Below, piece by piece: positions 56,818 to 57,795 of a stretch of 64,000 nt of DNA. The stretch comes from Escherichia coli. Lineage in GTDB: Bacteria > Pseudomonadota > Gammaproteobacteria > Enterobacterales > Enterobacteriaceae. The DNA lies in the NCBI RefSeq assembly GCF_044324785.1, contig NZ_CP172127.1; one strand, written 5' to 3'. Both the position numbers and the translations under genes were made by a program. The notes below the pieces were generated by a model. That model searched no databases. It was not told the origin of the DNA and worked only from the letters and a program-made list of their open reading frames with translations. How positions within the stretch are numbered: position 1 is the first letter of the stretch; each line of letters starts with the position of its first letter.

Positions 56818-57795
56818 ATGAAGCAGGATAAAAGACGCGGTCTGACCCGGATCGCATTGGCGCTGGCATTGGCAGGTTATTGTGTGGCACCTGTGGCGCT
56901 GGCGGAAGACAGCGCATGGATAGATAGCGGAGAAACCAATATTTTCCAGGGGACCATTCCGTGGCTCTATTCGGAAGGGGGAAACGCTACGACAGATGCC
57001 GACCATGTAACGTTGACTTCTGATCTAAAAGGCGCTCGCCCGACAGGCAGTGAAACGGACAAGCGTCTTTACTCGGGTGATAAATTAACCGTAAGTTGGG
57101 AAATTGGTGATACCGAAGGCGACGTGGATCTTGGGGTATTGGGCGATAACGCAAAGACTATCGATACTATCCGCTGGATGAGCTACAAGGACGCTCAGGG
57201 TGGCGATCCGAAAGCGCTGGCAACGAAGGTGACCAGTTACACTCTTACCGATGACGACCGTGGTCGTTATATCGGTATTGAAATTACGCCAACCACGCAG
57301 ACCGGTACGCCAAACGTCGGGAATGCGCTGCATCTTTATGACGTTTCCACTGCCAGCGGCGGAGGAAGCGACAGTGACAACGTTGCGCCAGGGCCGGTAG
57401 TTAACCAGAACCTGAAAGTCGCCATCTTTGTTGATGGTACCAGTATCAACCTTATCAACGGCAGCACGCCAATCGAACTTGGCAAAACCTACGTGGCCAA
57501 ACTGTACTCGGATGAGAACAAAAACGGGAAGTTTGATGCGGGTACCGATGCTGACGTTACCGCCAATTATGACTTCCGTTGGGTACTTTCTGGCAGCAGC
57601 CAACAGCTCGGCACCTCGGCTGGTATCGTTAACTCAAGCTTCGATAATAACAATCTGGTCATCCCGAAAACCAACGACGAAGCCAGAACCAACCTTAACG
57701 GCCCTGCGCGCGATGGTAAAGAGGCTCTTACCATCCCGACAAACGGCGACGGGGTACAGGGGTACAAACTTCACATTATTTACAAACACAAATAA
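56818..57795 (+). CDS. sinI: Secreted protein SinI/SivI-like (325 aa) with signal peptide; N-terminus resembles RatA, C-terminus resembles SinH
   Basis: Strong SD AAGGAGAG; signal peptide MKQDKRRGLTRIALALALAGYCVAPVALA; C-terminus ...GDGVQGYKLHIIYKHK aligns with SinH ...GDGLQGYGLRVLYTKK. Confidence 0.6.
   Translation: MKQDKRRGLTRIALALALAGYCVAPVALAEDSAWIDSGETNIFQGTIPWLYSEGGNATTDADHVTLTSDLKGARPTGSETDKRLYSGDKLTVSWEIGDTEGDVDLGVLGDNAKTIDTIRWMSYKDAQGGDPKALATKVTSYTLTDDDRGRYIGIEITPTTQTGTPNVGNALHLYDVSTASGGGSDSDNVAPGPVVNQNLKVAIFVDGTSINLINGSTPIELGKTYVAKLYSDENKNGKFDAGTDADVTANYDFRWVLSGSSQQLGTSAGIVNSSFDNNNLVIPKTNDEARTNLNGPARDGKEALTIPTNGDGVQGYKLHIIYKHK

What the first reader, a model, noticed from the sequence alone, without database searches (positions are those of the whole stretch)
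56818..57795. SinI looks mosaic: N-terminus like RatA, C-terminal domain like SinH
After the signal peptide SinI reads AEDSAWIDSGETNIFQGTIP, and RatA reads [20 protein letters not shown] at the same position. The SinI C-terminal roughly 110 aa (...YDFRWVLSG...NLVIPKTNDEA...GDGVQGYKLHIIYKHK) aligns with the SinH C-terminus (...YDYKWEFTG...DIVIPATNREA...GDGLQGYGLRVLYTKK). So the small middle gene shares a module with each neighbour. This suggests domain shuffling within the island, or that SinI docks to or caps the SinH passenger and the RatA N-terminus.
Basis: seen in the sequence. Interest (0 to 1): 0.5.

Follow-up and report, generated by a model that had tools for sequence, protein, structure and literature searches.

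The report
SinI shares modules with both neighbours
The small gene sinI in this E. coli adhesin operon shares its tail domain with the outer-membrane protein SinH (already published) and a short N-terminal tag with the giant adhesin RatA (apparently not described), which gives a testable lead on how barrel-less partner proteins are recognised.

Summary
Both halves of the observation are real. The window is E. coli strain N3, and the locus is yfgJ-sinH-sinI-rat-xseA.

**C-terminal half.** SinI 218-325 matches SinH 631-725 (35% identity, BLASTP E=6e-12; NCBIfam profile E=4e-21). This is already published (Kingsley 2003, as cited by Heinz 2016; Goh 2019).

**N-terminal half.** The SinI-RatA resemblance is not significant as a pair (E=0.054). 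At family level it holds:
- A ~20-residue tag (W...[ST]T..[IF].G[TS].P) follows the signal peptide in every SinI-like and Rat-like protein examined.
- SinI and Rat tags from the same locus share 7-13 of 20 residues, and they covary.
- A second motif (DTEGD) sits about 55 residues downstream in both families.
- Profile-profile score is 30.7, against 14.8±2.3 for shuffled controls.

**Distant operons.** The pattern recurs there. Gene 2 shares its C-domain with the inverse autotransporter (E~1e-23). It shares a whole ~150-190-residue N-module with gene 3 (E~1e-18).

**Best reading.** SinI is the barrel-less partner of a ZirTSU-like type Ve system. The N-terminal tag is a common handle for SinH-dependent export or attachment; this step is inferred, not shown. 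A fused AlphaFold2 model gave no confident complex (pTM 0.40).

The system is known; the tag appears to be a new detail.

The parts
54586..56763 (+). sinH (iatB): intimin-like inverse autotransporter, 725 aa. RefSeq uses the ATG at 54586; the ORF listing extends the ORF to a TTG at 54556.
   Evidence: NCBIfam NF033423 scores 1486.9 bits against a cutoff of 999. Pfam IAT_beta matches at E=2.4e-108. RefSeq annotation confirms the gene.
54772..55593 (+). SinH beta-barrel translocation domain (aa 63-336)
   Evidence: Pfam PF11924 matches residues 63-336.
56416..56760 (+). SinH distal passenger domain 3 (aa ~611-725). This is the module shared with SinI, and it corresponds to the published vaccine antigen SinH-3 (aa 602-724).
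   Evidence: BLASTP against SinI gives E=6e-12. The SinI profile hits 619-722 at E=4.3e-21. Xing 2023 describes the antigen.
56818..57795 (+). sinI: SinI-family autotransporter-associated protein, 325 aa, with no beta-barrel
   Evidence: NCBIfam NF040711 scores 335.3 bits against a cutoff of 165. There is no significant Pfam domain. RefSeq protein is WP_096983513.1.
56818..56904 (+). SinI signal peptide (aa 1-29, with cleavage after ALA inferred from the sequence). It is unusually conserved across the family.
   Evidence: Read from the sequence. A19, G20, C22, P25 and A29 are invariant. The block 11-20 has pairwise identity 0.75.
56905..56967 (+). SinI N-terminal tag (aa 30-50, EDSAWIDSGETNIFQGTIPWL). 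This is the element shared with RatA.
   Evidence: Searches support the shared motif. AlphaFold2 predicts coil with pLDDT about 58-65, ahead of the first strand.
56962..57342 (+). SinI N-domain, an Ig-like beta sandwich (aa ~49-175). It includes W.IGDTEGD.D (aa 94-104, nt 57097-57129) and an A9-like repeat core (YTLTDDDRGRYIGIEITP).
   Evidence: AlphaFold2 model. The profile finds the 90-175 segment repeated up to 27 times in giant proteins. There is a weak Pfam IG_AIR9 hit and a sub-threshold ZirU_fam hit over 69-210.
57343..57405 (+). SinI Gly/Asp-rich interdomain linker (aa 176-196, ...GGGSDSDNVAPGPV)
   Evidence: pLDDT is below 50 at residues 180-186. The D[DN][IV]P.GPV element is conserved.
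57406..57792 (+). SinI C-terminal Ig-like domain (aa 197-325), an ancient paralogue of SinH domain 3
   Evidence: Searches give the similarity. AlphaFold2 pLDDT is 80-95. Same-locus and cross-locus identity are both 36.7%.
57807..57830 (+). Conserved GC-rich hairpin (10-bp stem) followed by TTTCC, in the sinI-rat spacer
   Evidence: One search finds the hairpin. It is conserved with a compensatory change across loci.
57837..57871 (+). Conserved 15-bp AT-rich inverted repeat (core TTTGCTTA / TAAGCAAA) upstream of rat
   Evidence: One search finds the repeat. The core is invariant and the flanks covary across 6 loci.
57916..64000 (+). rat (RatA-like DUF823/DUF824 repeat adhesin). The full protein is 2679 aa, and only the first 2028 aa lie in the window.
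   Evidence: NCBIfam NF011844, NF011842 and NF011843 hit the first 500 aa. RefSeq gives the full length.
57994..58053 (+). RatA N-terminal tag (aa 27-46, [20 protein letters not shown]), directly after the predicted signal peptide (aa 1-26)
   Evidence: Searches support the tag. pLDDT is about 79-80 in the fused model.
58186..58212 (+). RatA second shared motif, NPQDREGDI (aa 91-99; family consensus NP.DTEGD.F)
   Evidence: hhalign aligns it with the SinI motif. It is a conservation peak at block 91-100.

Best explanation
SinI is the small barrel-less partner protein of a conserved three-gene type Ve (inverse autotransporter) adhesin operon, sinH-sinI-rat.

Shown here:
- SinI is modular. It has a Sec-type signal peptide, a ~20-aa N-terminal tag, an A9-like Ig domain, a flexible Gly/Asp linker and a C-terminal Ig-like domain.
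- The C-terminal domain is an ancient paralogue of the distal SinH passenger domain (SinH-3).
- The tag, plus a DTEGD motif ~55 residues further on, is shared with the N-terminus of the Rat adhesin.
- In distant operons the whole N-module is shared with the third gene product.

Inferred: the N-terminal tag or module is the common handle by which the barrel-less proteins of the operon are recognised by the SinH machinery after Sec export. Recognition would serve either translocation across the outer membrane or attachment to it. The precedent is ZirT-dependent secretion of ZirS and ZirU in Salmonella. In this reading SinI's SinH-like C-domain is its payload or contact module, and Rat's repeats are the payload of the other client.
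For: - **Gene order.** sinH-sinI-rat is conserved in all 21 loci recovered from Escherichia, Citrobacter, Pseudocitrobacter, Superficieibacter and Leminorella.
- **C-domain paralogy.** E=6e-12 and 4e-21.
- **Tag position.** It sits immediately after the signal peptide in both families and is a local conservation peak in both: blocks 41-50 and 91-100.
- **Profile statistics.**
- **Tag specificity.** 33 of 33 regex hits fall at these N-termini.
- **Covariation.** Same-locus tags score a BLOSUM mean of 47.2 against 38.0 cross-locus. Permutation gives p<5e-5 overall and p=0.009 within clade B. The window's two tags use different codons, so there is no recent gene conversion.
- **Both paralogues.** Both rat genes of Leminorella carry the tag.
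- **Distant operons.** They repeat the architecture with strong pairwise statistics. Their gene 3 combines the tag and N-module with Big_2 and a distinct C-terminus, so one N-module is attached to different payloads.
- **Structure.** AlphaFold2 places the tag as a flexible extension ahead of the first strand.
- **Literature.** ZirS secretion depends on ZirT (PMC2270342). Heinz 2016 already proposed SinI and Rat-like proteins as substrates of the autotransporter (PMC4943183).
Against: - No secretion or binding data exist for SinI or Rat.
- The fused AlphaFold2 model with a paired alignment gave pTM 0.40, so no confident complex.
- No SinH column segregates with tag type across all loci. There is only a small cluster at SinH 617-634 among Escherichia-type sequences.
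- The ZirU model aligns only from SinI residue 69 onward. The experimentally secreted ZirU may therefore lack the tag. ZirS and ZirU sequences could not be obtained.
- IatB (SinH) mediates biofilm formation without the sinI-like gene (PMC6714894).
- SinH is reported surface-exposed with a blocked barrel, so how clients would cross the membrane is unsolved.
- The covariation test is not corrected for phylogeny.
Confidence: 0.45

Rival explanations
1. Bridging adaptor. SinI docks its C-domain onto the homologous SinH-3 tip and its N-module or tag onto the homologous Rat N-terminus, by like-with-like Ig or beta-strand pairing. This would tether the giant Rat fibre to the SinH anchor.
For: The two tags covary with each other within loci, while SinH as a whole does not track tag type. 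That pattern fits tag-tag contact better than tag-SinH contact. In the fused model both tags adopt the same pattern of two short beta bridges six residues apart. A few SinH-3 positions (617-634) do track the SinI/Rat allele type.
Against: The fused model has pTM 0.40, and SinH domains 1 and 2 are poorly modelled. The C-domains of SinI and SinH show no within-locus covariation: 36.7% against 36.7%, p=0.54. The idea does not explain how SinI and Rat cross the outer membrane. Operons exist with a SinI-like gene but no third gene (L023, L026).
Confidence: 0.2
2. Paralogy without a shared function. The similarities are leftovers of old domain duplication. The tag is simply the first strand or N-cap of a common A9-like Ig fold, or is constrained by signal-peptidase processing. 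SinI acts on its own.
For: SinI residues ~90-175 belong to a very widespread Ig-like repeat found up to 27 times in giant proteins. I.G and D.DGD-type motifs are, from my own recollection of such repeats, general features of that fold. The C-domain duplication is ancient and the two copies evolve independently. IatB works in biofilm assays without the sinI-like gene.
Against: The tag is better conserved than its surroundings in both families. It covaries within loci. It is found only at the mature N-terminus of operon partners, not at internal repeats. It persists in Rat although the rest of the N-module similarity has decayed to marginal: score 19.2, E=0.05 without the tag. Gene order is strictly conserved.
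Confidence: 0.25
3. SinI is a periplasmic Ig-like chaperone or assembly factor for SinH and/or Rat and never leaves the periplasm. It would use its SinH-like domain and Rat-like tag to mimic or hold its clients.
For: SinI has a signal peptide, no barrel and an Ig fold. Heinz 2016 notes that periplasmic IgSF proteins often chaperone other IgSF proteins.
Confidence: 0.08
4. The N-terminal resemblance is a chance match of two short low-complexity stretches.
For: Pairwise BLASTP gives only E=0.054, and the alignment includes signal-peptide residues.
Against: All the family-level tests argue against it.
Confidence: 0.02

Closest known systems
Salmonella CS54 island sinH-sinI-ratA(-ratB-shdA); E. 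coli iatB locus (EcSMS35_2660) and Aec1/Aec3
   Same: This is the same operon family. The window's SinH passes the NCBIfam SinH equivalog cutoff, and SinI passes the SinI family cutoff. The SinI-SinH similarity and the idea that SinI and Rat are SinH clients are already published (PMC4943183 citing Kingsley 2003; PMC6714894). AFDB neighbours are named SinI and Aec3.
   Different: The E. coli N3 island has only sinH-sinI-rat between yfgJ and xseA, with no ratB or shdA. Its SinI is only ~45% identical to Salmonella-type SinI. The shared N-terminal tag was not mentioned in the papers I could read. Heinz 2016 called the Rat N-terminal region 'highly divergent'.
ZirT/ZirS/ZirU antivirulence secretion system of Salmonella
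   Same: An inverse-autotransporter barrel gene is followed by Sec-exported, barrel-less IgSF proteins that resemble the autotransporter's passenger. ZirS secretion depends on ZirT. SinI gives a weak ZirU-family hit (E=5e-7). Salmonella 'lipoprotein' models of ZirS-like size appear among the structural neighbours.
   Different: SinI scores 30 bits against a ZirU cutoff of 100, so it is not a member. The ZirU alignment starts at SinI residue 69, so ZirU may lack the tag. No Zur-box-like site above chance lies upstream of sinH. The third gene here is a 2679-aa repeat adhesin.
Two-partner secretion (TpsA/TpsB, e.g. FHA/FhaC)
   Same: This is a functional analogy only. A conserved element at the mature N-terminus of the exported partner would be recognised by the outer-membrane transporter, as Heinz 2016 proposed for these operons.
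   Different: The transporter is a 12-strand inverse-autotransporter barrel, not Omp85 with POTRA domains. The tag is ~20 aa (or a ~150-aa Ig-type module), not a ~250-aa beta-helical TPS domain. There is no Pfam TPS hit.
Invasin and intimin (classical type Ve adhesins)
   Same: The same beta-barrel family and an Ig-like passenger.
   Different: In those proteins the receptor-binding tip is part of the same polypeptide. Here, and more clearly in the distant operons, tip-like modules (Big_2 plus a distinct C-terminus) are separate proteins headed by the N-module.

Membership tests
SinI family autotransporter-associated protein (NCBIfam NF040711) | Whole-protein score above the curated cutoff (165 bits) | tested here: met
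   335.3 bits, E=3.9e-100, covering residues 7-322
SinI family autotransporter-associated protein (NCBIfam NF040711) | Encoded immediately downstream of an inverse autotransporter and lacking a beta-barrel | tested here: met
   sinH ends at 56763 and sinI starts at 56818. SinI has no IAT_beta or other barrel domain. AlphaFold2 shows two beta-sandwich domains. The arrangement is the same in 21 of 21 loci.
ZirTSU-like inverse autotransporter with co-encoded substrates | Upstream gene has an inverse-autotransporter beta-domain | tested here: met
   PF11924, E=2.4e-108
ZirTSU-like inverse autotransporter with co-encoded substrates | Downstream barrel-less, signal-peptide-bearing protein resembles the IgSF passenger domain of the autotransporter | tested here: met
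   SinI 218-325 against SinH 631-725, E=6e-12. Profile E=4e-21.
ZirTSU-like inverse autotransporter with co-encoded substrates | Secretion of the partner depends on the autotransporter | not testable with these tools
   Needs wild-type versus sinH-deletion fractionation. It has been shown only for ZirS and ZirT.
ZirU family (NCBIfam NF040485) | Score above the curated cutoff (100 bits) | tested here: not met
   30 bits, E=5.4e-7, residues 69-210 only
ZirTSU-like inverse autotransporter with co-encoded substrates | Zinc/Zur-regulated promoter | tested here: inconclusive
   A palindromic Zur-box-like pattern, written from memory, gave 2 matches with 3 mismatches against 3.3 expected by chance. 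One lies inside the start of sinH at 54604-54618.
Two-partner secretion substrate (TpsA) | N-terminal TPS domain (Pfam Haemagg_act) and an Omp85/POTRA transporter | tested here: not met
   No such Pfam hit in SinI. The transporter is IAT_beta.
RatA/RatB DUF823/DUF824 repeat adhesins (NF011844, NF011842, NF011843), for the downstream gene | Full-length score above the equivalog cutoff | tested here: inconclusive
   Only the first 500 aa were scanned: 1136 bits against a cutoff of 3870 for the 2683-position model, aligned 1-500 to 1-500. The gene runs off the window.
Chaperone-usher type donor-strand N-terminal extension | N-terminal extension that completes an incomplete Ig fold of a partner subunit | not tested
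   This is only an idea. AlphaFold2 shows the tag as a flexible extension, but no coordinates or PAE were available to test complementation.

The most novel reading that the evidence does not exclude
The ~20-residue tag directly after the signal peptide (core [ST]T..[IF].G[TS].P), together with the Ig-type N-module behind it, is a dedicated and portable recognition signal. It would mark barrel-less proteins as clients of SinH-type inverse autotransporters. That would define a 'split' type Ve system in which different payloads use one handle to be exported through, or docked on, the autotransporter. The payloads seen here are a SinH-3-like domain, a Big_2/tip module and giant Rat repeats.
Probability: 0.35. 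Interest if true: 0.65.

Novelty: already known. Interest (0 to 1): 0.4.

Why it matters
**Open question in type V secretion.** How proteins without a barrel (ZirS, ZirU, SinI, Rat) use an inverse autotransporter is unresolved. Heinz 2016 called it a Gordian knot. A short, specific, family-wide N-terminal tag shared by both barrel-less proteins of the operon gives a concrete element to delete, swap or graft.

**Vaccine relevance.** SinH domain 3 is a protective ExPEC vaccine antigen (PMC9937491). SinI carries a 35%-identical paralogue of exactly that domain, and the vaccine paper does not mention it. Cross-reactivity or decoy effects would therefore be worth checking.

**Allelic diversity.** sinI exists as two deeply divergent allelic types in Escherichia, while sinH stays 85-97% conserved.

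Tried and rejected
- **Pairwise BLASTP of SinI against RatA** was too weak alone (E=0.054), so I moved to family-level tests.
- **Pfam on SinI:** no significant domain.
- **PDB sequence search with the SinI profile:** nothing found.
- **Fused three-part AlphaFold2 model** (SinI-RatA N-terminus-SinH passenger, paired alignment from 20 loci): pTM 0.40, and no coordinates or PAE were returned. The docking test is inconclusive.
- **Rat N-terminus HMM against the distant SinI-like and gene-3 proteins:** not significant, E 1-8.
- **Recent gene conversion between the two tags:** rejected, because codon usage differs.
- **Within-locus covariation of the C-domains:** none.
- **SinH columns segregating with tag type across all loci:** none.
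- **Zur box upstream of sinH:** not above chance.
- **Rfam over 54100-58300:** only chance-level hits.
- **Obtaining ZirS and ZirU sequences:** the last protein search, using P0257, returned only close relatives.
- **Papers not held:** Kingsley 2003 and Prehna 2012.
- **Lipoprotein reading of the conserved 'AGYC' in the signal peptide:** rejected. Tyr sits at position -1, and the Cys is absent in distant members.

Full report
**What is there.** The window is 100% identical to the E. coli strain N3 chromosome. RefSeq annotates the region as der, a zinc-ribbon gene (yfgJ), sinH, a 'SinI family autotransporter-associated protein', a 2679-aa 'adhesion domain-containing protein', then xseA on the opposite strand. 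It is therefore a three-gene island without ratB or shdA.
- sinH runs 54586-56763 (725 aa).
- sinI runs 56818-57795 (325 aa).
- The rat gene starts at 57916 and runs off the window.
- SinH passes the NCBIfam SinH equivalog cutoff and has a Pfam IAT_beta domain at residues 63-336.
- SinI passes the curated SinI-family cutoff and has no significant Pfam domain.
- The first 500 aa of the third protein match the RatA and RatB models.

**Check of the C-terminal observation.** The quoted strings are present. BLASTP aligns SinI 218-325 with SinH 631-725 at 35% identity, E=6e-12. The SinI family profile hits SinH 619-722 at E=4.3e-21, and the SinH profile hits SinI 208-325 at E=1.9e-10. This half is real, but it is not new.
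- Heinz et al. 2016 (PMC4943183) state, citing Kingsley 2003, that SinI lacks a barrel but resembles the IgSF domains of SinH. They also propose that SinI and Rat-like proteins are substrates of the autotransporter, by analogy with ZirT and ZirS/ZirU.
- Goh et al. 2019 say the same for the E. coli orthologue IatB.
- Across 20 loci, SinI and SinH C-domains are no more alike within a locus than between loci (36.7% in both cases, p=0.54). The duplication is therefore ancient, and the two copies evolve independently around a common core (L, Y, D, Y..W, G.S, P..N..A, G.QG).

**Check of the N-terminal observation.** As a single pair the match is not significant: E=0.054, with signal-peptide residues included. 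It becomes convincing at family level.
- About 100 full-length SinI-family proteins (41-97% identical to the query) all carry W...[ST]T..[IF]QGT[VI]PW[IL] directly after the signal peptide.
- About 30 Rat N-termini all carry W(Q)...[ST]T..[IF]NGT.P.AD.A..PVYQGS at the same place.
- hhalign of the two families gives E=3e-5 over SinI 18-121 and RatA 15-118.
- With signal peptides removed the hhalign score is 30.7 (E=0.002), against 14.8±2.3 (maximum 20.6) for 60 column-shuffled controls. Without the tag it drops to a marginal 19.2.
- The alignment also pairs a second conserved motif, SinI W.IGDTEGD.D (94-104) with Rat NP.DTEGD.F (91-99), at the same ~55-residue spacing. Both motifs are local conservation peaks in both families.
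- A Rat N-terminus HMM retrieves SinI N-termini, always at residues 32-115, at E~1e-4.
- A strict regex found 33 hits in 1.09 million six-frame residues. All were at residues 37-53 of SinI-like, Rat-like or gene-3 proteins.

**Synteny and covariation.** In all 21 loci recovered from one genome per species (Escherichia, Citrobacter, Pseudocitrobacter, Superficieibacter, Leminorella) the order sinH-sinI-rat is kept. Leminorella has two rat genes, both tagged.

Two tag types exist, and each locus has the same type on both proteins.
- Clade A (this window, Pseudocitrobacter): A.W..SG.TAEFQGTIP with W Q...STAEFNGT.P.
- Clade B: NLK.GQWQ...STGTIQGTVP with ALK.G.WQ...ST.AINGT.P.

In an ungapped 20-residue window, same-locus pairs share 7-13 identities. 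An example is KSGQWQIVSDSTGTIQGTVP against KSGTWQEVNTSTDAINGTVP. Same-locus similarity exceeds cross-locus similarity (47.2 against 38.0; p<5e-5 overall, p=0.009 within clade B). These permutations are not corrected for phylogeny. The two tags in the window use different synonymous codons, so recent gene conversion is unlikely.

SinH does not track tag type globally. Only a small cluster at SinH 617-634, at the start of domain 3, segregates among Escherichia-type sequences.

**The pattern is general.** A profile search of 1.84 billion representatives found distant SinI-like proteins (E 1e-13 to 1e-50). All keep the core [ST]..I.G..P.[IL] after the signal peptide, plus (V)GD...D.(D/E)GD.D. In two distant operon types (L025, L028/L029):
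- Gene 2 shares its C-domain with the upstream autotransporter: 42-49% identity, E 1e-22 to 5e-24.
- Gene 2 shares a whole 143-189-residue N-module with gene 3: 31-36% identity, E 7e-18 to 2.5e-18.
- Gene 3 has the tag TGSAG[IV]INGTPPVIYN, the A9-like Ig domain, the same DNIP.GPV linker, a Big_2 domain and a distinct Cys/Trp-rich C-terminus.

One N-module is thus joined to three kinds of payload. In Rat only the tag and DTEGD remain recognisable.

**Anatomy of SinI.** AlphaFold2 (29-sequence alignment, mean pLDDT 75.9) gives two beta-sandwich domains, ~49-175 and 197-325, joined by a low-confidence Gly/Asp linker. The tag (33-48) is a coil of moderate confidence ahead of the first strand.
- Structure searches return only generic Ig/FN3 folds in the PDB.
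- In AFDB they return the SinI/Aec3 family, gene-3-type 'BIG2' proteins, SinH, and Salmonella 'lipoproteins' of ZirS-like size.
- SinI residues ~90-175 belong to a widespread A9-like repeat present up to 27 times in giant proteins.

**Mechanism.** Shown: modular paralogy with both neighbours, a specific N-terminal tag on both barrel-less proteins, strict synteny, and tag covariation.

Inferred (confidence about 0.45): the tag or N-module is the handle through which SinH-type autotransporters recognise their barrel-less partners for export or surface attachment, as ZirT does for ZirS (PMC2270342).

Rivals are:
- A SinI bridge that pairs like with like on SinH-3 and on Rat (0.2).
- Paralogy with no shared function (0.25).
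- A periplasmic chaperone role (0.08).
- Chance (0.02).

A fused AlphaFold2 model of all three parts with a paired alignment gave pTM 0.40 and cannot decide between them. Both tags adopted the same pattern of two short beta bridges, but no coordinates were available. Two points count against the client model. IatB forms biofilm without the sinI-like gene. The ZirU profile aligns only from SinI residue 69.

**Verdict.** The C-terminal half and the general 'SinH plus partner proteins' idea are already published. The N-terminal tag shared by SinI and Rat, its covariation, and the recurrence of the two-sided mosaic in distant operons were not described in the papers I could read. Heinz 2016 called the Rat N-terminal region highly divergent. 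It is a useful new detail in a known system rather than a new kind of system. It gains practical relevance because SinH domain 3, the module SinI copies, is a protective ExPEC vaccine antigen (PMC9937491).

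Noticed in passing
window 57807-57830 and 57837-57871 (sinI-rat spacer): Two perfect hairpins sit in the spacer: a 10-bp GC-rich stem followed by TTTCC, then a 15-bp AT-rich inverted repeat. Both are conserved in divergent loci with compensatory changes (AGCATTCC/GGAATGCT against ACCATTCC/GGAATGGT). The core TTTGCTTA/TAAGCAAA is invariant. This may be an attenuator or regulator site that sets the SinI:Rat ratio. There is no Rfam match.
   Followed up: partly
window 56818-56904 (SinI signal peptide): The SinI signal peptide is unusually conserved (LTK[VI]ALAL..AGYC..P). 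The block 11-20 has pairwise identity 0.75, higher than most of the mature protein, and A19, G20, C22 and P25 are invariant in the close family. It is not a lipobox.
   Followed up: partly
window 56818-58600 compared with L007, L008, L017, L021: Within Escherichia, sinI and the 5' end of rat exist as two deeply divergent allelic types: SinI is 32-57% identical and the Rat N-terminus 50-64%. The adjacent SinH is 86-97% identical in the barrel and domains 1-2, and 73-76% in domain 3. This suggests allele replacement or diversifying selection on the partner genes.
   Followed up: partly
window 56434-56487 (SinH aa 617-634): Among Escherichia-type SinH, four of the five positions that segregate with the SinI/Rat tag type cluster here (KEPLPLN against KEHLPVD). 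This is either the edge of a recombination block or a contact surface on SinH domain 3.
   Followed up: partly
window 57085-57342 (SinI aa ~90-175): This segment (YTLTDDDRGRYIGIEITPTTQTG) is one copy of an A9-like Ig repeat. The repeat occurs up to 27 times in giant proteins of 1000-6400 aa in the representative library. Pfam covers it only weakly (IG_AIR9, E=0.006).
   Followed up: partly
L025 3082-4164; L028 2155-3243; P0307-P0312: These are 'split invasin tip' proteins of about 360 aa. They have the tag and N-module, then Big_2, then a Cys/Trp-rich C-terminal domain. They are encoded as the third gene after an inverse autotransporter and a SinI-like gene in Buttiauxella-like enterobacteria. 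The lectin-like nature of the C-terminus is my recollection and was not tested.
   Followed up: partly
window 54370-54560 (upstream of sinH): About 200 bp of very AT-rich DNA lie between yfgJ and sinH, typical of horizontally acquired, possibly H-NS-silenced promoters. No sigma-70-like site passed the scan there.
   Followed up: no
L007 4552-4843: In Escherichia sp. E1V33 the sinI-rat spacer carries an extra ~180-bp insertion with REP/BIME-like GC-rich palindromes between the sinI stop codon and the conserved hairpins.
   Followed up: no
L001 1-591 (NZ_CP031609.1 2275843-2277125): RefSeq marks pepB of strain N3 as frameshifted (a pseudogene). It lies about 20 kb upstream of sinH.
   Followed up: no
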